Part shown: piece after piece, positions 9,801-19,639 of the stretch
Numbering within the stretch: position 1 is the first letter of the stretch
Layout of the letters: each line of letters starts with the position of its first letter
Assembly (NCBI GenBank): GCA_019057385.1
Contig: JAHQJS010000006.1
Span: 256,001-320,000, forward strand
Source: Candidatus Borrarchaeum weybense
GTDB taxonomy: Archaea > Asgardarchaeota > Sifarchaeia > Borrarchaeales > Borrarchaeaceae
DNA: 64,000 nt
Direction: 5' to 3'
Made by a program: the position numbers and the translations under genes
The notes under the pieces: generated by a model
Seen by the model: only the letters and a program-made list of their open reading frames with translations
What the model was told of the DNA's origin: nothing
Database searches by the model: none

Positions 9801-10092
9801 AACCCATCCAGTTATCTTATTTCATAATTAGAGAAATCTTATCTGACTCAAAATGTGCTCAGTATATTCATAAAGGTTCCGTCTTTTCTCGCTCTTATTT
9901 TTGAGGACAGCTTGAAAAAAGATATATTAGTTAGACTTGAAAATGTCTTTGTAACATCCTTATATGGCACATCAAGGAATTTTCTTCTTGAAGTATAAAA
10001 AGTCCTCTAAGAGATAAGATCTTATGTAGTAGATTCCATAGATGTTATTGATCTTGAATAACAACTACACAGATCATATGAGAGATGCTCAA

Positions 10093-10971
10093 ATGCGTAT
10101 AGGTATTATAACAAACCTTGAAAAGAGTTTTGAAGTTCAGGAATTAGTTAATTCATTGCAGAACAGACAAATTACACCTTTGATCTTTTCGTTTGATCAA
10201 CTTGCTGCAAATATTGGCTTTGAGAGAGACACTATTCAACTGAAGGACATAAATCTCTTGGATGAATTGGATGCACTAATCGTTAGAGGACCTCCTATGG
10301 GTACGTTAGAACAAATAACTGCTAAATTGGATATTTTATACAAATTAGAAGGTCTAGGAATTACGATTATCAATTCCCCTAAAGCAATTGAAGTGTCTGG
10401 GGATAAATTTCTTTCAGGAATTCGACTTGCAGAAGTTGGTTTACCAGTACCTAAAAGTATAGTAACTGAGACTCTAGATGCCGCACTCGATGGCTTCTCA
10501 AATTTGGGGGAAGACGTAATTGTAAAACCAATTATTGGGAGTAGAGGGCGAGGAGTTGTAAGAATAACAGATCGGGAAATTGCTTGGCGTATATTTGATA
10601 CGTTAATTCGCTCTAATCAAGTCATTTTCATGCAAGAATACCTTCCTCATGGATTACAAGATATTAGAACTCTTGTTGTTGGCAATACGGTAACTGCTGC
10701 AATGTATCGGTTATCTAATAACTGGAAATCTAATATAAGTGAAGGTGCTATACCAAAACCTTGCAAGATTGATGAATCATTGGAACAACTGAGTATAGAT
10801 GCTTCTAAAACTCTTGGGTGTGAACTGGCTGGAATCGATTTAGTTGAAGTAAAAAACACAAGATATGTTATAGAGGTAAATCCAAGTCCTGGATGGAAGG
10901 GATTACAAAGCGTTACCGAACATTCGATTGCTGATGCGATCATTAACAAAATATTAACAAAGATAGCGTGA
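10093..10971 (+). CDS. RimK-family ATP-grasp alpha-L-glutamate ligase (MptN/CofF-like)
   Basis: KPIIGSRGRG, QEYLP, DIRTLVVG, WKSNISEG, EVNPSPG. Start placed at MRIGII; the ORF extends to 10042. Confidence 0.88.
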   Translation: MRIGIITNLEKSFEVQELVNSLQNRQITPLIFSFDQLAANIGFERDTIQLKDINLLDELDALIVRGPPMGTLEQITAKLDILYKLEGLGITIINSPKAIEVSGDKFLSGIRLAEVGLPVPKSIVTETLDAALDGFSNLGEDVIVKPIIGSRGRGVVRITDREIAWRIFDTLIRSNQVIFMQEYLPHGLQDIRTLVVGNTVTAAMYRLSNNWKSNISEGAIPKPCKIDESLEQLSIDASKTLGCELAGIDLVEVKNTRYVIEVNPSPGWKGLQSVTEHSIADAIINKILTKIA

Positions 10972-11101
10972 TTTAACTCAATCCTTGAAATAAATTGGGA
11001 GCAAAGGAGGAATTGGTAACATCATTTCTTGATATTGCTAGATTTTTTCCTCTTAAAATAATATGAATCTTCTAATGGTTTGTTAAAACTGATTAGAGAG
11101 T

Positions 11102-12007
11102 GTGAATTTGAAGATAGGAGTTGCAATTTCGTCATCAGGACAGACACTTCGTTGGCATGAATTGCAGTTAAAACGTGCATTGGATAAGAAAAATATCTCT
11201 ACAGTTTTCTTCCCAATAAAAGATACAATAGCAAATTATAGTAGATCCACTTTAGGTGTTCATTATAACAACTCTAATTTAATTAATGAACTAAGCGGCG
11301 TCCTAGTTAGGGGGCCAGGAATCGGCGTTTTGGAACAAATCTATTTTCGAATGAATGTGGTTAGACTCTTTGAGCACTCAGGTACTTATGTCATTAATTC
11401 GGCAAAAGCAATTGAGCAAGCAAGTGACAAATTATTTACGTCTATGGCTTTAGACGGGGCAAATATTTCAGTACCTCCAACCATGGTGGCACAGAAAATC
11501 GATGACGCAATGAATTTCTTTAAAAGCTATAAAGATATAGTAATAAAGCCGTTGTTTGGTTCAATGGGCCAGGGGATTACTCGCATAACAGATGAGGACA
11601 CAGCATATTTAATATTTGAAACTTTAGAGCAATTTGATTTGATCATTTATCTCCAGAAATTTATTCCACATGGAAATCGAGATATTAGAGCCTTGGTGAT
11701 AGGAGATCAAGTTATTGCAGCTATGTATCGAGTTGCAGAAAACAATGGTTGGAAAACGAATGTAAGTCTAGGAGCTACTCCTGAAGTGTGTGAGCTGAAT
11801 GAGAAGTTAAAAAAAATCTGCGTTAGAGCTGCTCAAATAGCAGGTTGCGAAATCGCAGGAATTGATATAATGATCCCCGAAAATGAACAGGATACTGATT
11901 ACTATCTACTTGAAGTAAATGCATGTCCTGCATGGGAAGGTCTGCAGAAAACTACAACATTAAACATAGCTGAAGTTATTGTAGATTATATAGCAACCAG
12001 AGTATAA
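11102..12007 (+). CDS. RimK-family ATP-grasp alpha-L-glutamate ligase (paralog 2)
   Basis: KPLFGSMGQG, QKFIP, DIRALVIG, WKTNVSLG, EVNACP. Confidence 0.88.
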   Translation: MNLKIGVAISSSGQTLRWHELQLKRALDKKNISTVFFPIKDTIANYSRSTLGVHYNNSNLINELSGVLVRGPGIGVLEQIYFRMNVVRLFEHSGTYVINSAKAIEQASDKLFTSMALDGANISVPPTMVAQKIDDAMNFFKSYKDIVIKPLFGSMGQGITRITDEDTAYLIFETLEQFDLIIYLQKFIPHGNRDIRALVIGDQVIAAMYRVAENNGWKTNVSLGATPEVCELNEKLKKICVRAAQIAGCEIAGIDIMIPENEQDTDYYLLEVNACPAWEGLQKTTTLNIAEVIVDYIATRV

Positions 12008-12035
12008 CGAAGAGCACATTGAAGGACAAATCTCG

Positions 12036-12671
12036 ATGAATACCACAATAGCGATTTTATCCGGAGGAAAATCTCATAGACTTAAGTCAGTTGTCCCAGA
12101 CAAAGGTTTACTATTGCTGAACAACAAACCAATGATTTTATGGGTGATAGAGGTTATTCAAGAACTCTCTAATAACATTCTAGTCATCGTAAGTTCAGAA
12201 AGTCAAAAAGAAAAATATCTTGAAGTTATAGAAAATCTTGCAGAAATGGTGATAGACAAAAGAGAGTCTATTAGGAGTTCCTTGCTGGGTGCACACGCAG
12301 CATTCATGCATGCAAGTGGGAAATACACCATTTTATTACCTAACGATACGCCTTTATTAAATCGAGATGCCTTACTCCTATTAATAGAATTATGTGAAGA
12401 CTATGATGTGGTATTACCCCGATGGCCAAACGGATTTATCGAGCCCTTACATGCCATTTACAGGACAGAAATTGCAAGAAAAAGATCAACGGAACTGATA
12501 CAGAAAAACCAATATAAACTAGATGGTCTGCTACAAAATGCAAACGTTTTGTATATCAATACTGAGATTTTCAAACAATTTGACCCTCAACTTAATATGT
12601 TTTTCAACGTAAATACCCCAGGTGATCTGAAGAAACTAAAAGGTTTAGTCAAAAAGCCTCAAAGGAGATAA
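12036..12671 (+). CDS. mobA: MobA-like nucleotidyl(guanylyl)transferase
   Basis: ILSGGKSHRL...DKGLL, EPLHAIYR, FFNVNTPGDL. Confidence 0.82.
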   Translation: MNTTIAILSGGKSHRLKSVVPDKGLLLLNNKPMILWVIEVIQELSNNILVIVSSESQKEKYLEVIENLAEMVIDKRESIRSSLLGAHAAFMHASGKYTILLPNDTPLLNRDALLLLIELCEDYDVVLPRWPNGFIEPLHAIYRTEIARKRSTELIQKNQYKLDGLLQNANVLYINTEIFKQFDPQLNMFFNVNTPGDLKKLKGLVKKPQRR

Positions 12672-12677
12672 GATGAA

Positions 12678-13445
12678 TTGGAACTCCCGAAAATTGAAAT
12701 TTTTCCAATCCCCGGTATACCTATCATACGAGAAGGGGATAATACTGGAGAAATAATATGCCAATGTATAAACAACACGCGGATTGCTTTACAAGAAGAG
12801 GATATAATAGTTATAGCCCATGCGATAGTTTCAAGAGCGGAAGGAAGATTGGTAGATTTAAGGACGGTCATACCTTCTGAGTTTGCACAAACGATTTCAG
12901 ATCAATGCGATAAAGACCCAAGACATGTAGAAGTGATTCTCAGTCAAGCAAAGTCAATCGTACGGATGAAAGATGGAATATTAATAGTTGAATCAAAAAC
13001 ACCAGCAGGATGGGTAATGGCAAACGCAGGAGTAGATCAATCTAATTCTCTTGGAGAAAACTTTGCTCTTCTTTTACCAGAGAATCCAGATCGTTCCGCA
13101 GAAACAATTAGAAAAAAAATACAAGAAGAATATGGGGTTGAAGTAGCAGTAATTATTACAGATACTTTTGGCAGAGCACTGCGTTCAGCTGCAGTTAATG
13201 TAGCTATTGGGACATCAGGGATTAAACCGATCCTAGACTTAAGAGGAGTGAAAGATCTCTTCGGCTATACATTGACTAGCACTTGCGTTGCGATCGCAGA
13301 TGAACTCGCTTCAGCTGCAGAGTTAATTAGTGGACAATCAAATGAGGGGTTTCCTGTTATTGTAATTCGTGGATACAAATATCAAAAGGGAACAGAATCC
13401 GCATTGTTGCTTGCTAGGCCAAGAGAAAACGCTCTCTTTTGGTGA
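12678..13445 (+). CDS. cofE: Coenzyme F420-0:L-glutamate ligase
   Basis: IVSRAEGR, ANAGVDQSN, LLPENPD, IITDTFGRA, ADELASAA. Confidence 0.93.
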   Translation: MELPKIEIFPIPGIPIIREGDNTGEIICQCINNTRIALQEEDIIVIAHAIVSRAEGRLVDLRTVIPSEFAQTISDQCDKDPRHVEVILSQAKSIVRMKDGILIVESKTPAGWVMANAGVDQSNSLGENFALLLPENPDRSAETIRKKIQEEYGVEVAVIITDTFGRALRSAAVNVAIGTSGIKPILDLRGVKDLFGYTLTSTCVAIADELASAAELISGQSNEGFPVIVIRGYKYQKGTESALLLARPRENALFW

Positions 13446-13515
13446 CTGCGAAATATGATAAAAAAGATTATAACTATCATCTAAAATTCAAAAATATCCG
13501 TAAAAGTTGATATAA

Positions 13516-15045
13516 ATGAAGGGTGACAACACCGAACTAAGAAAATGGCCTCCAGTTTCGGGTGATTGGGTACTAGGTAATCCAAACGCTCATATCGCTA
13601 TTATGACTTGCGGATCATATGAGTTGCCAAGTCATCTTGTAAACTCAAATAAAGATTATGTCGCAATTGCAGGTTTTTGTGAAGTTGAGAATGAGGGTAT
13701 AGCAAAAATATTACAAAATATATGCTCTAACGCATCTATTCGTGTACTAGTCGTCGCCGGCGAGAGAGTAAAAGGACATGAGCCCGGACAGAGTATTATT
13801 AGCCTCTATGAGAACGGCATTGATGATAATTTTACTATTATTGGAAGTAACGGTACCATACCCACGCTATTGCCCCGATATTTCAAAAATATAGATCCTT
13901 TCATATGGGTTTCACGCTTTCAACAGCAGATTGTGAATATTTTAGATTTGCGCAATGAAACAGATCTTAACAAAATTTCAGAAGAAATCGCTAAACTTGG
14001 AGAACAAGCATTTGAAACATTCCCCGATGAACCTCTCTTTCCTCCTGTGCAAAAGGTAAATTACGATTTTGGAACGTTGGCGAGTTCTGAATATGATATC
14101 ACTGAGATTGATGTAAAGAAAACTGAAAATATGCTTTTAGGAAATCCGCTCTTTTTTTCTAATACACAGCTACTGGTCTACGATATAGGTGGCACAAAGA
14201 TTGGAGGACAACGAGGAGAATACCCATGTGTCTTAGCTGGAACGATTTTTTATAAGGGTGATAAGACGGTGGAAAATTCCGATCGAGGATTATTTGACAA
14301 AAAACTAGCCGCTGATTACATTTATCAACAGGAACTAAAATCATTTGAATTTGAAATCCCATCAATGGTGCATGTCGTTGGTGAAACACCAATGGCTATT
14401 GAAAACTATCTATTGTTTGCTATAGAGCGTACAGACTCTCCGATTATAGTAGATTCCCCAGACGCTGCGACAAGGATTGCTGCAGTTCAGTTATCAAAAG
14501 ATATGGGGTTCGACAACCGAATAATTTACAATTCTATCTTTGTCCAAGATGAAGCGGAAATAAAGACGCTTACCGAAATTGGAGGCGTTGAATATGCAAT
14601 AATTTTACCATACGATCTCACTGTTGAAGAAAGGGTCGTAAAGACAAATGATCTCATTAATTTTGCAAAAGATGCTGTCAAGAAACCAATTTTGGATCCG
14701 GGTGTCCCTAAACTTGGTGAAGGGGGTTTTAGTGCACTCCATGCTGCATGGACCTTAAAAGATATTTACGGGTTCCCAATGGCTATTGGAATTCACAACT
14801 TACATTCAAGATTGCCAAAAAAGGAAAAAGGATTATCAGCAAAATCATTAGATTTTGGATTTAATTATGCGTTTCCATCAAATTTTGGGATAGATATTAA
14901 CATGTATGGACCGATAAAAAGGGCTGATAAAATCTTTCCAATGATTGCGGCTATTGAAACTATGATCGCTGATGAACTGATTAAAATCTACGATATATCA
15001 CCTAGACCTCCACATCCATATTATAAACTTGGTCTGGAAGGATGA
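13516..15045 (+). CDS. mtrAH: MtrA-MtrH fusion: corrinoid protein plus methyl-H4MPT methyltransferase
   Basis: N-terminus WPPVSGDW...ENEGIAKILQNICSNASIR...VKGHEPGQS is MtrA with the cobamide-ligating His. From about nt 14165, DIGGTKIGGQRGEYPCVLAGTIFY...YNSI...DPG...GIHN...YGPIK is MtrH. No TM anchor. Confidence 0.88.
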   Translation: MKGDNTELRKWPPVSGDWVLGNPNAHIAIMTCGSYELPSHLVNSNKDYVAIAGFCEVENEGIAKILQNICSNASIRVLVVAGERVKGHEPGQSIISLYENGIDDNFTIIGSNGTIPTLLPRYFKNIDPFIWVSRFQQQIVNILDLRNETDLNKISEEIAKLGEQAFETFPDEPLFPPVQKVNYDFGTLASSEYDITEIDVKKTENMLLGNPLFFSNTQLLVYDIGGTKIGGQRGEYPCVLAGTIFYKGDKTVENSDRGLFDKKLAADYIYQQELKSFEFEIPSMVHVVGETPMAIENYLLFAIERTDSPIIVDSPDAATRIAAVQLSKDMGFDNRIIYNSIFVQDEAEIKTLTEIGGVEYAIILPYDLTVEERVVKTNDLINFAKDAVKKPILDPGVPKLGEGGFSALHAAWTLKDIYGFPMAIGIHNLHSRLPKKEKGLSAKSLDFGFNYAFPSNFGIDINMYGPIKRADKIFPMIAAIETMIADELIKIYDISPRPPHPYYKLGLEG

Positions 15046-15048
15046 ATA

Positions 15049-16347
15049 GTGCTTAAATGTGCAGAAAACATTGAGGATCTCTATGGTCCGTATATCATTA
15101 GAGGAAGATCAATCGATTTAGTTTGGAGAACATATTTGTCAAAAATCATTGAACAAGGATTATCTGTAATCACAGAAGATAAACAACAGAAAACTAAGGA
15201 GACCTTATGTTGCATATCCCATTTGACTGACTGGAAAAGTGGGCGAATAGTTCCTAGAAATTATGTTGGATTATCACCAGAAATTATTAGAACACAATAC
15301 CTACCACAGTATCTAAGCGGCGAAAAGGGAGATCATACATACACCTACGGTTGGTGTGTAAGAAAAAGATTTGGATTTGACCAGACCAAACTGGCAGTCG
15401 AGCAATTAAAAACTTCAAGAACAGCATTCGCGCAACTTTGGAATCCTATAGAAGATCTAAAAAGTGCTAATCCACCTTGTGTTGACATAGCACTGTATTA
15501 CAATGATTTTTCAACAAAAATGCTCCACATGATTGCCTATATCCGTAGCAATGATATGGGACGTGCCCACTCTGATGATGTTGCAGGTCTCTACGAAACA
15601 TTTCTCCGTTATGACGGCGCCTTTAATTTATATGGAGCCCAGAAAGCTGCAGGTACATTAACAACCATTTCAGGTTCTGCTCATATATATGATACCTCAA
15701 TTCCTGAACTACAAGAAATTTTGGTTGGTTCTGTTACTTTAGCGAATGAAAATCAGCCTTTAAATACCAAAACTTTACCAGGGCCTATTTTGTTTCAATC
15801 AAGAACCTATCAAAGTTTCCTTTCAGAATTAGAAGTCAAATTCAAAAAATACTGCAGAGAAAATAATGGATCATTTGATCTCTTTTTTACTGTAAGATTT
15901 GATGATTTAGCTTCTTCTGATTTTGATTCGAGTCAAACATTAGAAAAATTAAATGACCAGATTAAAGATCCTTCGCTTGAAAGTACGATTCGAAATTATC
16001 AAGGAGTAACAGATACTGGGAATGCATCAAGTATTGATCAAATCGAGTTTATTGCAAAAAAACTTAGAAATGCACCGAGAAGTCGACGGATGGTTATTGC
16101 GCCTAATAATCCCTCCAAAAAAATCTATTCTTTGAATCCTATAATAGTTCAATTTCTTTATCGACTTGAAAAATTGTATACAATTGCATTATTCTCCAAT
16201 TACAGCCTTATAGATATTCCTAAGGCAGTAATTATGGTTAGAAATCTCCAAAATGAAGTCCTCAAAGGCACAGATATCGCTGCTGGACCTATAGTGTTTC
16301 TATTTATGCCTGGTACCCATAAAACCAAGCATTTCTCTCTTTCGTGA
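15049..16347 (+). CDS. Thymidylate-synthase-fold protein with tandem (active plus degenerate) domains
   Basis: Domain 1: YTYG...DQ, WNP..D...PPC, RSND, SAHIY. Domain 2: DQIEFIAKKL...SRR...QFLYR, without the catalytic Cys. Confidence 0.85.
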   Translation: MLKCAENIEDLYGPYIIRGRSIDLVWRTYLSKIIEQGLSVITEDKQQKTKETLCCISHLTDWKSGRIVPRNYVGLSPEIIRTQYLPQYLSGEKGDHTYTYGWCVRKRFGFDQTKLAVEQLKTSRTAFAQLWNPIEDLKSANPPCVDIALYYNDFSTKMLHMIAYIRSNDMGRAHSDDVAGLYETFLRYDGAFNLYGAQKAAGTLTTISGSAHIYDTSIPELQEILVGSVTLANENQPLNTKTLPGPILFQSRTYQSFLSELEVKFKKYCRENNGSFDLFFTVRFDDLASSDFDSSQTLEKLNDQIKDPSLESTIRNYQGVTDTGNASSIDQIEFIAKKLRNAPRSRRMVIAPNNPSKKIYSLNPIIVQFLYRLEKLYTIALFSNYSLIDIPKAVIMVRNLQNEVLKGTDIAAGPIVFLFMPGTHKTKHFSLS

Positions 16348-16397
16348 ATTATATGCATTCTGAAAAAGAATTTTTGATGAATGACATCTATTTGGTG

Positions 16398-17561
16398 TCA
16401 TCCTTTGAGAAACAAAATCTTAAGCTCATTTTCGTGGAATTTAGCCTTTTCGATCTCCTTGTCCCGAATAATTGTGGGGAGATATAAAACACGCTTGTAT
16501 TTGCCTACACGAATAACCAGTGTGTTACGATCGTGCTCGATTGATAATTCACCTTTTTCGCTGAAAGGCAGTTTTATAACCAGTTCATAGTTTCCATTGT
16601 CTTGTTGCACAAGTTGAAACGGTCTTTCTGTAGTTAGAGTTTCAGTCGGATCTTTATCATGATAGAGCGCATCTGCCACTTTTCCAAGAAGCGTGGTACC
16701 TATGATTTCTTCCTGGAACAGTGGAACTGGAAGAATTGGAAGTGGATCAAATGCTTCATCGATCTGATTCATATAATCGGCTTGCTGTTGTTTCCAGCGC
16801 ACAAAAAATGGATCACTAACCTCCTCTGGAAGTAATCTATTGACTACAACTCCGTCAACGAGAAAACCAAACAAGTTCATAAAGGTTAATGTGCGCATCG
16901 ATTCTAGTAATACCATTTTTTCTGGATTAACCACCAACTTAACCGTTGTGACCGATGGATCTACAAGCAGTTCTCGAACTTCCATTGCTTCTTCAATCAA
17001 AGAATCTGTAACTTTTTGCACATCTGCACCAGGTAATGAGACTGGTAAAAGCATCCGAAGTGGCTTTAATTCCTCAAGTATTATTTTTTCGAGCTCCACC
17101 AGATTTCGACCAAGTGAACCGATGACCTCTGGAAAACTCATTAAACGAAGTGTATGTCCTGTAGGCGCCGTATCCAATACTATAACATCGTACTCGTTTA
17201 TGTACTGACGGATAGTTAAAAGACTAAATAACTCATCCATTCCAGGAATTACTACCATCTCACTCGCTAAAGCTTGGTCAAACCCTCTCGCAGTAAATAA
17301 TTGTGTAAGATACTTGAGTACAATCTCCCATTTTTCCTCCATCAGGCGCTGGGAATCAATTTCCAGACCATATAAATTCTCGCTTATCTTTTTCGGGGAG
17401 TGACCACCTAAATTAATACCTATTGCGTCACTTAAACTATGAGCTGGATCTGTGCTGAGCATTAAAGTTTTTTTTCCATTCTCTGCACACCGTAAACCTG
17501 TAGCTGCCGACACAGTTGTCTTTCCGGTGCCACCTTTTCCTGTAAACACTAAAATTCGCAT
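16398..17561 (-). CDS. ArsA/Get3-like ATPase with C-terminal HSP20-like domain
   Basis: GKGGTGKTT, STDPAHSLSD, DTAPTGHTLR, NPEKMV; C-terminal beta-rich LVIKLPF...LVIRVGKYKR. Confidence 0.9.
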   Translation of the reverse strand: MRILVFTGKGGTGKTTVSAATGLRCAENGKKTLMLSTDPAHSLSDAIGINLGGHSPKKISENLYGLEIDSQRLMEEKWEIVLKYLTQLFTARGFDQALASEMVVIPGMDELFSLLTIRQYINEYDVIVLDTAPTGHTLRLMSFPEVIGSLGRNLVELEKIILEELKPLRMLLPVSLPGADVQKVTDSLIEEAMEVRELLVDPSVTTVKLVVNPEKMVLLESMRTLTFMNLFGFLVDGVVVNRLLPEEVSDPFFVRWKQQQADYMNQIDEAFDPLPILPVPLFQEEIIGTTLLGKVADALYHDKDPTETLTTERPFQLVQQDNGNYELVIKLPFSEKGELSIEHDRNTLVIRVGKYKRVLYLPTIIRDKEIEKAKFHENELKILFLKG

Positions 17562-17669: not shown

Positions 17670-18281
17670 TTATTCAACACTTATCTCAAAAGATTTCGAA
17701 TTGTCGCCAGAATTCTTTTTTGGGTTACTTAGAGTATTGTTGACAGCCTCTAACTCACTTTCTAGAATTTTTTTATACTGCATGAGCACCTCTACAAGCT
17801 GATCTGGCTTTACAATTTGAATTAACCATTCTCTTAATTGTTTACCTCTATCTTCCATAAGCTGTATAACATCTTTTAGTCTGTTTTCTACATATGTTTG
17901 GTAAGGGCTAAAATATTCGTCGATAAAACTAACAAATTTGCCTAGTAGGTCGATTTCTTGATCAAAACGTTCTGCAATAATCTTTAGAACACCTTTTCCC
18001 TTGTCCGTTAATTGATACATCTTTTTTGTGCCACCCTCTCCACTTTCAGTGATATTCTGAATTAACTTATCATTTTCTAATCTGGAGAGTGTAGGATATA
18101 TTGTGCCGCTTTTTGGCTCCCATGCGCCACCAAACTTCCCTTTTAGATCTTGTATAATATCTGAACCTGCCATCGGCTTTTCTTGTAGCAGCACTAATAT
18201 TAAAAATTCAACTGGGCTCACTTTTCGTTCAAGTACATTTCTGAAAAGCCCTCTACCTAATCCTCGACCAAGCCAAAACAT
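17670..18281 (-). CDS. PadR-family transcriptional regulator
   Basis: LILVLLQEKPMAG...WEPKSGTIYPTLSRLE...KKMYQLTDKG. Confidence 0.9.
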   Translation of the reverse strand: MFWLGRGLGRGLFRNVLERKVSPVEFLILVLLQEKPMAGSDIIQDLKGKFGGAWEPKSGTIYPTLSRLENDKLIQNITESGEGGTKKMYQLTDKGKGVLKIIAERFDQEIDLLGKFVSFIDEYFSPYQTYVENRLKDVIQLMEDRGKQLREWLIQIVKPDQLVEVLMQYKKILESELEAVNNTLSNPKKNSGDNSKSFEISVE

Positions 18282-19009: not shown

Positions 19010-19639
19010 TCACTTTTTATGATGTTTCCCAAAAAAATTGATAGAAATGTCTTGAATGATCTCCTGTGATTTTTGTATAGACTGAGTTGTATCAATAACT
19101 GAGTATTCTTCTTCTTTCGCCCTTTCAAGGAAATTATCACGTACTTTGCTAAGAAACTCTCTATTTTCAAATGATTCTAGTTTTTCTCTTCTATTTAGGC
19201 GCGCCATAGCATCCTTTGGACTTATATCAAGGATAAAAGTAATGTCGGGCCAAACTATGCCTTTGTTAATAGCCTTGATCCACTCTCTTGTTAATTCTTG
19301 CGCGGATTGATATGCTAATGAAGATTCAATATATCGAGTTGTAATTACGATTTGTCCTTGTTTAAGGGCGGGCTCTATAACTTCCTTCACATGTTGTATT
19401 CTATCTGCAGCAAATAATAGTGCAAACATCTCAGGCTGCTTAATTTCGAACTTGTCTTGCAATGCTTCTTTTATTAAGCGGCCAACGGCACCCTTAGTAG
19501 GTTCTCTAGTAAGAATTACACTAAATCCTTGTTCAACCAAAAACTCATATAGAAGTCTACTATGAGTAGACGTTCCAGAACCGTCGATTCCTTCAAATGC
19601 GATCAGAAAACCTCTCTGATTTGATTGTGGGTTCGTCAT
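19010..19639 (-). CDS. tmk: Thymidylate (dTMP) kinase
   Basis: IAFEGIDGSGTST, TREP, LLFAADR, RYIESSLAYQ, PDITFILD. Confidence 0.93.
   Translation of the reverse strand: MTNPQSNQRGFLIAFEGIDGSGTSTHSRLLYEFLVEQGFSVILTREPTKGAVGRLIKEALQDKFEIKQPEMFALLFAADRIQHVKEVIEPALKQGQIVITTRYIESSLAYQSAQELTREWIKAINKGIVWPDITFILDISPKDAMARLNRREKLESFENREFLSKVRDNFLERAKEEEYSVIDTTQSIQKSQEIIQDISINFFGKHHKK

What the first reader, a model, noticed from the sequence alone, without database searches (positions are those of the whole stretch)
13516..16347. MtrA-MtrH fusion coupled to a cytosine-type thymidylate-synthase-fold enzyme: candidate cobamide-linked pyrimidine methylation system
Seen: a soluble MtrA-MtrH fusion with the cobamide-ligating His (GHEPGQ, 13777) and no membrane anchor. 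No other mtr genes are in the window. Its stop is 3 nt from the start of a TS-fold gene, and a TATA-like element lies upstream (~13468). Known: MtrH moves methyl from methyl-H4MPT to the MtrA corrinoid. TS-fold enzymes activate pyrimidine C5 through a Cys adduct and normally use methylene-pterin. Inference: the pair could channel a methyl group from methyl-H4MPT via cobamide to a TS-activated pyrimidine, a chemistry distinct from ThyA and ThyX. It would repurpose methanogenesis parts for nucleotide modification instead of Na+ pumping.
Basis: partly seen in the sequence, partly recalled or inferred. Interest (0 to 1): 0.88.

Follow-up and report, generated by a model that had tools for sequence, protein, structure and literature searches.

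The report
B12 methyl-carrier paired with thymidylate synthase
In this Asgard archaeon and its relatives, the only recognisable thymine-making enzyme is an unusual single-chain thymidylate synthase that always follows, and is predicted to bind, a vitamin-B12-type methyl-carrier protein, which points to an untested third way of making thymidylate.

Summary
Window 13516-15045 encodes a soluble MtrA-MtrH fusion that keeps the cobamide ligand His88 and its partner Glu58. Three bases later, 15049-16347 encodes a 432-aa thymidylate-synthase (TS) fold protein.

What I added:
- The TS is a tandem pseudo-dimer. The N-half has Cys144, R166 and H212/Y214 but no Arg-Arg pair. The C-half keeps only R346-R347.
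- Asp replaces the uracil-selecting Asn177 in 21 of 21 family members, against Asn in 155 of 161 nearest relatives.
- It is the genome's only ThyA homologue. I found no ThyX, thymidine kinase, dNK or FolA (assembly scored 100% complete).
- The pair is adjacent in 18 of 18 sampled Asgard genomes that carry it and in 16 of 16 loci from species-representative genomes. Flanking genes differ. Those families have no ThyX (0 of 19).
- Co-folding supports a complex (ipSAE 0.87, best control 0.01). The TS docks on the MtrH domain.
- Other archaea fuse a His-bearing MtrA directly to TS.

Best reading (about 0.5): a cobamide relay passes methyl from methyl-H4MPT to a TS-activated pyrimidine. The chemistry is untested, and dUMP versus dCMP is unresolved.

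The papers I could search describe the fusion and Asgard thyA separately, never together. This scan had already flagged the same pair in at least 9 other genomes.

The parts
13516..15045 (+). Gene for the soluble MtrA-MtrH fusion (509 aa, P0001)
   Evidence: 36 homologous clusters at 46-89% identity, all with MtrA plus MtrH.
13540..14040 (+). MtrA corrinoid-binding domain (residues 9-175). Glu58 codon 13687-13689, His88 codon 13777-13779, GTIP meander at residues 113-116.
   Evidence: Pfam E 1e-33. Alignment to PDB 5L8X/5LAA. Residue roles from Wagner 2016, PMC4915002. Invariant in alignment A2.
14041..14172 (+). Hydrophilic linker of about 44 residues (176-219) between the MtrA and MtrH domains. 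It replaces the membrane anchor of canonical MtrA. A tether role is inferred.
   Evidence: Sequence. Poorly conserved in A2.
14173..15042 (+). MtrH-type pterin-binding methyltransferase domain (residues 220-509). It carries the predicted docking surface for the TS (residues 223-239, 270-283, 303-309, 328-335, 355-356, 497-499).
   Evidence: Pfam E 5.5e-55. PDB MtrH/MtgA hits, E 6e-36. Interface.
15036..15048 (+). Gene junction: GGAAGGA (Shine-Dalgarno-like), stop TGA at 15043-15045, 3-nt spacer before the GTG start at 15049
   Evidence: In 16 related loci the MtrAH match ends 6-85 nt before the TS match.
15049..16347 (+). Gene for the tandem (pseudo-dimeric) thymidylate-synthase-fold protein (432 aa, P0002)
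   Evidence: AF2 model pLDDT 88, pTM 0.91. Foldseek and VIA hits to TS-fold enzymes.
15082..15744 (+). Catalytic N-half (residues 12-232). Cys144 codon 15478-15480; R166/S167/D169; Asp177 codon 15577-15579; H212/Y214; Y100; E51. No Arg-Arg pair.
   Evidence: Alignment A1 invariants. HMMER alignments to solved TS. VIA Z 22.0 to dCMP hydroxylase 9iqu, 20.2 to MilA, about 19.4 to ThyA.
15721..15798 (+). Conserved inter-half linker (residues 225-250; S228, N233, N239, G245, P246). Predicted to lie on the MtrH domain.
15781..16344 (+). Degenerate C-half (residues 245-432). It keeps S345-R346-R347 (codons 16081-16089) but lacks the Cys, the RSxD motif and the HxY motif. Supplying the phosphate-binding Arg pair to the N-half site is inferred.
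   Evidence: NCBIfam TS hits at 323-365. Profile A3 hits TS chains almost exclusively, best E 5.7e-4. Invariants.
19010..19639 (-). Thymidylate kinase gene, 2.7 kb downstream. Context only, not part of the pair.
   Evidence: Pfam PF02223, E 1.3e-51.

Best explanation
The two genes encode one two-protein enzyme, which is this lineage's only route to thymidylate.

Shown or strongly supported:
- MtrAH keeps the cobamide ligand residues of MtrA and an intact MtrH barrel.
- The TS-fold protein is a single-chain pseudo-dimer with one composite active site: Cys144, R166, D169, H212 and Y214 from the N-half, and R346/R347 from the C-half.
- The two genes are always adjacent.
- The two proteins are predicted to form a complex through the MtrH domain.
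- No other thymidylate synthase or thymidine kinase is found.

Inferred mechanism:
1. MtrH moves the methyl group of methyl-H4MPT onto the Co(I) cobamide held by the MtrA domain.
2. The MtrA domain swings on its 44-residue linker to the TS active site.
3. Cys144 adds to C6 of the pyrimidine nucleotide.
4. The resulting C5 enolate or enamine takes the methyl group from methyl-Co(III) by an SN2 displacement.
5. Beta-elimination releases the 5-methyl product and Co(I).

The pterin is never oxidised, so no dihydropterin reductase is needed. The substrate is either dUMP, giving dTMP directly, or dCMP (favoured by Asp177), giving 5-methyl-dCMP that is then deaminated.
For: - Only one PF00303 hit in a genome scored 100% complete. 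No ThyX, TK, dNK or FolA.
- Among 151 Asgard genomes, 18 have the tandem TS. All 18 have an MtrA hit in a 505-586-aa frame directly upstream on the same strand. ThyX is 0 of 19 in those five families.
- 16 of 16 tandem-TS loci in species-representative genomes have MtrAH ending 6-85 nt upstream. Flanks differ between lineages.
- Co-folding: ipSAE 0.87 (runs 0.89, 0.87, 0.87) against a best control of 0.01. That mark was reached by 58 of 80 solved complexes and 2 of 110 mismatched pairs. The runs share at least 93% of contacts and the partner pLDDT is at least 86. The counts hold only roughly because my own alignments were used. I know of no solved TS-MtrH complex.
- His88 and Glu58 are invariant in 22 fusions.
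- His-bearing MtrA::TS single-chain fusions exist: P0069, P0105, P0188. One sits beside RACo, CdhD and CofE.
- The genome has CobS and two RACo-type corrinoid activators.
- The literature leaves the methyl acceptor of the Asgard MtrAH fusion open (PMC11291895).
- The TS superfamily has already switched cofactor once, from folate to flavin (PMC13326640).
- From my own knowledge: polar methyl transfer from methylcobalamin to a carbon nucleophile has a precedent in TsrM.
Against: - No biochemical data exist.
- Asp169, which binds the pterin in classical ThyA, along with E51 (~Glu58) and Y100 (~Tyr94), is invariant. That fits retained methylene-pterin chemistry equally well.
- In the predicted complex the TS touches only the MtrH domain, at loops I read as the N-terminal face of the barrel. 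The MtrA domain makes no confident contact with the TS, so the delivery step is not modelled.
- Most MtrA-like domains fused to TS in other lineages lack the His ligand: only 4 of 75 keep it. The MtrA-TS association therefore does not always imply His-on cobamide.
- Short Asn177 archaeal TS, as in Asgard family f7, has no adjacent MtrA.
Confidence: 0.5

Rival explanations
1. Classical ThyA chemistry. The tandem TS binds methylene-H4MPT itself and makes dTMP plus dihydromethanopterin. MtrAH is a bound accessory, for example feeding or buffering the C1 pool or regulating the enzyme, and passes no methyl group to the nucleotide.
For: Residues used in methylene-pterin chemistry are invariant: D169, E51, Y100, H212, Y214. 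Relatives with Asn177 exist without any adjacent MtrA. The predicted interface involves MtrH, not the corrinoid domain.
Against: This gives no role to an invariant, apparently cobamide-competent MtrA domain. It also does not explain strict adjacency in 34 of 34 loci. No FolA was found; other dihydropterin reductases were not searched. The archaeal TS core lacks the C-terminal segment that closes over folate, since the Pfam match stops near position 228 of 266.
Confidence: 0.25
2. Cobamide acts as the reductant rather than the methyl carrier. The methylene group comes from a pterin, and cob(I)amide reduces the exocyclic-methylene intermediate. This is the ThyX logic with B12 in place of flavin, and it leaves the pterin in the tetrahydro state.
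For: It explains a need for a corrinoid domain and the absence of FolA. RACo-type reductive activators are present.
Against: It gives no role to an intact MtrH methyltransferase domain fused to MtrA. I know of no precedent.
Confidence: 0.08
3. A cytosine-specific modification enzyme. The pair makes 5-methyl- or 5-hydroxymethyl-(d)CMP for DNA or metabolite modification, and thymidylate is obtained in some other way.
For: Asp177 is invariant (21 of 21), against Asn in 155 of 161 relatives. Asp at this position confers dCMP preference (PMC13326640). The closest structures are the dCMP hydroxylase AfhB (Z 22.0) and the CMP hydroxymethylase MilA (Z 20.2).
Against: No other source of dTMP was found: no ThyX, second ThyA, TK or dNK. 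This holds across five families, including single-contig genomes. Thymidylate kinase is present, 2.7 kb away.
Confidence: 0.1
4. Reverse, catabolic direction. The TS-fold protein removes the methyl group from thymine or 5-methylcytosine nucleotides onto the cobamide, and MtrH passes it to H4MPT for the Wood-Ljungdahl pathway.
For: MtrH homologues such as MtgA work in the corrinoid-to-pterin direction in methylotrophic systems (PDB 6SJ8 titles). The genome has four further MtrH paralogues with activators.
Against: It would leave the cell with no thymidylate synthase. From general chemistry, breaking a C-CH3 bond with Co(I) is unfavourable.
Confidence: 0.03

Closest known systems
MtrA and MtrH of the methanogen N5-methyl-H4MPT:coenzyme M methyltransferase (Mtr complex; PDB 5L8X, 5LAA, 8Q3V, 9QTP), and the cytoplasmic MtrA homologues
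   Same: The MtrA Rossmann-type corrinoid domain has His84/Glu54 equivalents and the GxIP meander. The MtrH pterin-binding barrel is present. The presumed first half-reaction is the same: methyl-H4MPT to Co(I).
   Different: The two domains are fused into one soluble chain with no membrane helix. MtrD and MtrE are not found in the genome. The partner is a TS-fold protein instead of the MtrE/coenzyme M site, so no Na+ pumping is expected.
Short archaeal/methanogen-type thymidylate synthase (NCBIfam TIGR03283; ThyA superfamily PF00303)
   Same: Same fold and core motifs: PPC, RSxD, SAHxY, Tyr94 equivalent. Like them, it lacks the C-terminal 40 or so residues of bacterial ThyA.
   Different: A tandem duplication gives complementary loss: Cys and the rest in the N-half, the Arg-Arg pair only in the C-half. 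It is therefore a single-chain pseudo-heterodimer with one site. Asp replaces Asn177. It has an obligate MtrAH neighbour. Its score of 113.8 bits is below the equivalog cut-off of 174.55.
Cytosine-specific TS-fold enzymes: T4 dCMP hydroxymethylase, MilA (CMP hydroxymethylase), phage 5-hydroxy-dCMP synthase AfhB / RB69 gp48
   Same: Asp at the Asn177 position. These are the closest solved structures to the N-half (Z 22.0 and 20.2). AfhB-type enzymes show that the fold can work with a non-folate cofactor (flavin).
   Different: Those enzymes are homodimers of viral or secondary-metabolism origin. The hydroxylases carry D169N, whereas this family keeps Asp169. None has a corrinoid partner.
Modular corrinoid methyltransferase systems (MetH; MtaABC; MtgAB; CFeSP/MeTr)
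   Same: The proposed logic is the same: a pterin-side methyltransferase, a mobile corrinoid domain, and an acceptor-side module, with a RACo/RamA-type activator encoded elsewhere in the genome.
   Different: The acceptor module would be a TS fold that activates a carbon nucleophile, instead of a zinc-thiolate or nickel site. No such acceptor is described in the papers I could search.
MtrA-like::TS::PterinBD-DUF4346 fusion proteins of small-genome bacteria and archaea (P0045-P0056 and about 100 clusters)
   Same: They are the nearest sequence relatives of the N-half. An MtrA-fold domain is joined to an archaeal-type TS, and neighbours include thymidylate kinase, dCMP deaminase and dCTP deaminase.
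   Different: They have a single TS domain with its own Arg-Arg pair and Asn177. Most lack the His ligand (71 of 75). No MtrH is seen nearby. They carry an extra DUF4346 domain.

Membership tests
ThyA thymidylate synthase (EC 2.1.1.45, PF00303) | TS alpha/beta fold | tested here: met
   AF2 model pLDDT 88. Foldseek E 6e-12 and VIA Z about 19 (rmsd 2.5, about 200 residues aligned) to many ThyA chains. Pfam E 3.4e-13.
ThyA thymidylate synthase (EC 2.1.1.45, PF00303) | Catalytic Cys (E. coli C146) in a PC motif | tested here: met
   Cys144 in NPPC, invariant in 21 sequences. The C-half has Ile, Leu or Val at this position.
ThyA thymidylate synthase (EC 2.1.1.45, PF00303) | Asn177, which selects uracil | tested here: not met
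   Asp177 is invariant. Relatives have Asn in 155 of 161.
ThyA thymidylate synthase (EC 2.1.1.45, PF00303) | Obligate homodimer in which each subunit gives Arg126'/Arg127' to the other site | tested here: not met
   The N-half lacks the Arg pair and the C-half keeps only R346/R347. The result is a single-chain pseudo-dimer with one site. Oligomeric state was not measured.
ThyA thymidylate synthase (EC 2.1.1.45, PF00303) | Uses 5,10-methylene-tetrahydropterin as both carbon and hydride donor | not testable with these tools
   Asp169 and the Glu58 and Tyr94 equivalents are kept. The C-terminal folate-closing segment is absent. An assay is needed.
Methanogen-type ThyA equivalog (TIGR03283) | Score above the curated equivalog cut-off | tested here: not met
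   113.8 bits against a cut-off of 174.55.
MtrA (PF04208), corrinoid subunit of Mtr | Cobalt-ligating His84 with its Glu54 hydrogen-bond partner | tested here: met
   His88 and Glu58 align to them and are invariant.
MtrA (PF04208), corrinoid subunit of Mtr | C-terminal transmembrane anchor, and membership of the MtrA-H membrane complex | tested here: not met
   A linker and an MtrH domain follow residue 175. No MtrD or MtrE in the genome.
MtrA (PF04208), corrinoid subunit of Mtr | Actually binds a cobamide | not testable with these tools
   Inferred from conserved ligand residues only.
MtrH (PF02007), methyl-H4MPT:corrinoid methyltransferase | Full-length pterin-binding barrel homologous to MtrH/MtgA | tested here: met
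   Pfam E 5.5e-55 over model positions 4-289 of 299. PDB 8z9u E 6e-36. The score is below the TIGR01114 equivalog cut-off (179 against 271), so this is a divergent subfamily.
Cytosine-specific TS-fold enzymes (dCMP/CMP hydroxymethylases and hydroxylases) | Asp at the Asn177 position | tested here: met
   Asp177. The rule is cited from PMC13326640.
Flavin-dependent 5-hydroxy-dCMP synthases | D169N signature | tested here: not met
   Asp169 is invariant. The signature is from PMC13326640.

The most novel reading that the evidence does not exclude
A third mechanistic class of thymidylate synthase. It is a cobamide-dependent two-protein enzyme. MtrH loads methyl from methyl-H4MPT onto the MtrA-bound corrinoid, and a single-site pseudo-dimeric TS-fold subunit transfers that intact methyl group to C5 of dUMP or dCMP. 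It would serve as the sole dTMP source in Borr-, Sif-, Jord-, Frey-, Atabey- and Njord-type Asgard archaea. That would make DNA synthesis B12-dependent in close relatives of the eukaryotic ancestor.
Probability: 0.45. Interest if true: 0.92.

Novelty: new variant of a known kind. Interest (0 to 1): 0.8.

Why it matters
Only two ways of making thymidylate de novo are known: ThyA and the flavin enzyme ThyX. If this pair works as proposed, it is a third. The methyl group would arrive ready-made through vitamin B12, the pterin would never be oxidised, and no dihydrofolate-type reductase would be needed.

It would also:
- answer an open question in the Asgard literature, namely what accepts the methyl group of the "non-methanogenic" MtrAH fusion (PMC11291895);
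- revise the picture of Asgard thyA as an ordinary folate enzyme (PMC9931769);
- make DNA replication in several Asgard lineages depend on cobamide and on the Wood-Ljungdahl methyl branch;
- add a carbon-nucleophile acceptor to the range of corrinoid methyltransferases.

The single-chain TS with one composite site is in addition a natural example of a homodimer fixed as an asymmetric pseudo-dimer.

Tried and rejected
- **Literature.** Searches for "thymidylate synthase + MtrA + corrinoid", "DUF4346" and "thymidylate synthase + MtrA + archaea" found nothing relevant. Many subscription-journal papers are not in the library, so prior description cannot be excluded.
- **Expression.** No RNA holder is listed for 13400-16400, so I have no evidence on expression or co-transcription.
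- **dCMP route through a ComEB-type deaminase.** The deaminase is present in this genus (L022; 3 of 4 genomes). It was not found with this query in 0 of 15 genomes of the other four tandem-TS families. It therefore cannot be a general second step. Those families have two or three DCD-family genes instead. This does not settle the substrate.
- **Possible exception.** G025 has an MtrA hit in a 542-aa frame without a TS. It turned out to be a TusA+MtrA protein with no MtrH domain, not the fusion.
- **Half-to-half similarity.** BLASTP of the N-half against the C-half is not significant (E 0.28). Homology of the C-half rests on profile hits to TS and on the model.
- **A mapping I withdrew.** I first equated TS Arg18 with E. 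coli Arg21. VIA alignments start at about model residue 19-23 against ThyA residue 1, so Arg18 lies in an N-terminal extension. Lys45 is the likelier counterpart (inference).
- **The Leu143 rule for methyl versus hydroxymethyl products.** The equivalent residue is Asn or Asp here, but Asn177-type archaeal relatives also have Asp or Ser there. The rule does not discriminate in this clade.
- **Corrinoid delivery in the model.** I could not measure whether the linker can reach the TS site.
- **Promoter scan.** Not run, because the tool models sigma-70 promoters, not archaeal ones.
Full report
**1. What is there**

On the + strand, six genes run from 10042 to 16347. They are two MptN-like glutamate ligases, a MobA-like nucleotidyltransferase, CofE, and then the two genes of the finding.

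ORF 13516-15045 (P0001, 509 aa) has an MtrA domain at residues 9-175 and an MtrH domain at residues 220-486. A hydrophilic linker of about 44 residues joins them, in the place where canonical MtrA has its membrane helix.

I aligned the MtrA domain to the solved M. jannaschii MtrA. CEVENEG matches CHTENLG, and GERVKGHEPGQ matches GSEVQGHITGQ. So Glu58 and His88 correspond to Glu54 and His84. Wagner et al. identify those two residues as the hydrogen-bond partner and the cobalt ligand (PMC4915002). Both are invariant in 22 fusion homologues, as is a GTIP version of the "meander" motif.

The gene ends with TGA at 15043-15045. The next ORF starts with GTG at 15049, behind a GGAAGGA stretch.

**2. 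The TS-fold protein**

P0002 (432 aa) hits PF00303 and, more strongly, the methanogen-type ThyA model over residues 15-219. A second weak TS match falls at residues 323-365.

An alignment of 21 homologues (A1) and HMMER alignments to solved TS give the anatomy.

- The N-half has Cys144 (E. coli C146), R166/S167/D169, H212/Y214 (H207/Y209), Y100 (Y94) and E51 (~E58). It has no Arg-Arg pair.
- The C-half keeps an invariant S345-R346-R347 in a DQI...SRR...NP...P-x-x-QF context. It has lost the Cys and both the RSxD and HxY motifs.
- A profile of the C-halves hits TS chains almost exclusively, with a best E of 5.7e-4.

The AF2 model is confident as a whole (pLDDT 88, pTM 0.91). By Foldseek and VIA it is a TS fold. 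The protein is therefore a single-chain pseudo-dimer with one composite site. Other first-stage notes on this stretch saw the same thing.

Position 177 is Asp in all 21 sequences. Among 161 nearest relatives from an exhaustive HMMER search it is Asn in 155. Asp here is the established determinant of dCMP preference (PMC13326640). In line with that, the closest solved structures to the N-half are the phage dCMP hydroxylase AfhB (Z 22.0, rmsd 2.3, 199 residues aligned) and the CMP hydroxymethylase MilA (Z 20.2). ThyA chains score about 19.4.

**3. It is the only thymidylate synthase**

The window's genome is 4.18 Mb in 8 contigs, scored 100% complete with 7% contamination. It is about 94% identical at this locus to Ca. 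Borrarchaeum yapensis.

It has one PF00303 hit, which is this gene. I found no ThyX, thymidine kinase, dNK or FolA. Thymidylate kinase is present, 2.7 kb downstream of the TS at 19010-19639.

I also sampled 151 Asgard genomes. The tandem TS occurs in 18 of them, in five families, and ThyX is found in 0 of 19 genomes of those families. Most families without any ThyA hit do have ThyX. Several of the tandem-TS genomes are single contigs.

**4. The pairing is conserved**

- In all 18 sampled genomes, an MtrA hit in a 505-586-aa frame lies directly upstream on the same strand.
- In a pattern scan of species-representative genomes, 16 of 16 tandem-TS loci have an MtrAH match ending 6-85 nt before the TS. 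The lineages are Borr-, Sif-, Jord-, Frey- and Atabeyarchaeia and unnamed relatives.
- Flanking genes are unrelated between lineages: proteasome and exosome genes in Freyarchaeia, ribosomal genes in Atabeyarchaeia, cofactor genes here.
- The one apparent exception, G025, is a TusA-MtrA protein without an MtrH domain.

**5. Predicted physical complex**

I co-folded the two full-length proteins with their alignments. The ipSAE was 0.87 (runs 0.89, 0.87, 0.87) against a best control of 0.01.

In the tool's calibration, 58 of 80 solved complexes and 2 of 110 mismatched pairs reached that mark. The runs share at least 93% of contacts and the partner pLDDT is at least 86. The counts hold only roughly, because my own alignments were used.

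The model supports binding but does not show it. I know of no solved TS-MtrH complex it could be recalling.

The interface has two sides.

- On the TS: the N-terminal strand and helix A (residues 15-32), residues 58-61, the conserved inter-half linker (225-250), and residues 264-268.
- On MtrAH: loops of the MtrH domain (223-239, 270-283, 303-309, 328-335).

From the strand pattern, I read those MtrH loops as the N-terminal face of the barrel. That would leave the pterin and corrinoid face free.

The conserved residues in the TS linker (S228, N233, N239, G245, P246) are explained by this contact. The MtrA domain makes no confident contact with the TS, so the proposed delivery step is not modelled.

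**6. Fusions elsewhere**

Most of the nearest relatives of the N-half are proteins of 400-560 aa. They carry an N-terminal MtrA-like domain, one Asn177 TS domain with its own Arg pair, and a C-terminal PterinBD-DUF4346 domain. One also has a dCMP deaminase domain.

They sit beside thymidylate kinase, dCTP deaminase and even ThyX, in bacteria-like and small-archaeon-like contexts. No MtrH is nearby.

Their MtrA-like domain usually lacks the His. Of 75 that match my MtrA profile, only 4 keep it. Two Asgard fusions, L018 and L019, have Phe or Tyr at that position.

Three proteins (P0069, P0105, P0188) are His-bearing MtrA::TS fusions. One lies between CdhD, a RACo corrinoid activator and a CooC-like ATPase on one side, and CofE, CitG and a luciferase-family gene on the other.

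The association of the MtrA fold with this TS clade is therefore old and widespread. A cobamide role is clear only where the His is kept.

**7. Mechanism**

The simplest reading follows the logic of modular corrinoid methyltransferases. MtrH methylates the MtrA-bound Co(I) from methyl-H4MPT. The tethered MtrA domain then delivers methyl-Co(III) to the TS site. There the Cys144 adduct of the pyrimidine attacks the methyl group with C5. Elimination follows.

Cobamide assembly (CobS) and two RACo-type activators are encoded elsewhere in the genome. The overall redox cost equals that of ThyA plus a reductase, because Mer would make the methyl-H4MPT. No dihydropterin is formed. This is inference.

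The main rival is ordinary methylene-pterin chemistry with MtrAH as an accessory. It is favoured by the invariant Asp169 and the Glu58 and Tyr94 equivalents. It is disfavoured because it gives the invariant corrinoid domain no role.

**8. Substrate**

Asp177 and the structural neighbours point to dCMP. However, every tandem-TS lineage keeps a dC-to-dU deaminase.

- This genus has a ComEB-type dCMP deaminase (HAEQN...PCxxCAK) in 3 of 4 genomes. I found it in none of the 15 genomes of the other four families.
- Those four families instead have two or three DCD-family genes.

This pattern fits dUMP as the substrate. It also fits deamination after methylation. I leave the question open, at roughly even odds.

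**9. Prior knowledge**

Valentin-Alvarado et al. (PMC11291895) describe the Asgard MtrAH fusion as phylogenetically distinct and say the fate of the methyl group is uncertain. The word "thymidylate" does not occur in that paper.

Filee et al. (PMC9931769) survey Asgard thyA and thyX as ordinary folate enzymes, and "Mtr" does not occur in the paper.

This scan had already flagged and followed up the same pair in at least 9 other genomes, with the same conclusions. Those are AI notes, not independent evidence. Everything cited above I tested on this genome.

**10. Verdict**

The functional partnership is strongly supported. The cobamide methyl-relay chemistry is plausible but untested (about 0.5). 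The parts belong to known families, but the combination, and the reaction if real, are not described in the papers I could search.

Noticed in passing
window 19010-19639 (-): Thymidylate kinase (PF02223, E 1.3e-51) lies 2.7 kb downstream of the TS gene. An ArsA/Get3-like ATPase (16398-17561) and a PadR regulator (17670-18281) lie in between. In same-genus genome G050, a Tmk also lies about 6 kb from the pair.
   Followed up: partly
window 10042-13445 (+): A cofactor cluster sits directly upstream of mtrAH. It holds two paralogous MptN-like (H4MPT:alpha-L-glutamate ligase-like) RimK-family genes, a MobA/CofC-like nucleotidyltransferase and CofE (F420 glutamyl ligase). CofE also sits next to the His-bearing MtrA::TS fusion in L042. 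The other Asgard lineages do not share this flank.
   Followed up: partly
P0069, P0105, P0188; loci L040-L046: These are single-chain fusions of a His-bearing MtrA domain to an Asn177 TS domain (419-491 aa) in non-Asgard archaea. P0105 is flanked by CdhD, a RACo corrinoid activator, a CooC-like ATPase, CofE, CitG and a luciferase-family gene. I did not check whether those genomes have MtrH.
   Followed up: partly
P0082, P0158, P0200: Three short (231-263 aa) TS-fold proteins outside the tandem family also carry Asp at the Asn177 position. Their origin and gene context were not examined.
   Followed up: no
L020:1648-2679 (-) (G070, Asgard family f10): Family f10 Asgard genomes carry a TS of about 340 aa with Asn177 and a long N-terminal extension of about 200 residues. 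It matches no MtrA model, and these genomes have no MtrA. About a quarter of them (7 of 25) also have ThyX.
   Followed up: no
L047:1570-3123 (-) (G025): A 517-aa protein combines a TusA-like domain with an MtrA domain and an unassigned C-terminal half, in a genome that has ThyX and no ThyA.
   Followed up: no
G000 contig C7, about 847-877 kb (outside the window): Three stand-alone MtrH paralogues (859.5-863.6 kb) are flanked by two RACo/RamA-type corrinoid activators (857.6 and 876.9 kb) and CobS (847.5 kb). This is probably a methylotrophic corrinoid methyltransferase island.
   Followed up: no
L015:8214-9836 (+): In one small-archaeon-like contig, an MtrA-like::TS::DUF4346 fusion, a 540-aa ThyX-domain protein, thymidylate kinase and glutaredoxin are encoded in a row. 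Both TS types therefore coexist there.
   Followed up: no
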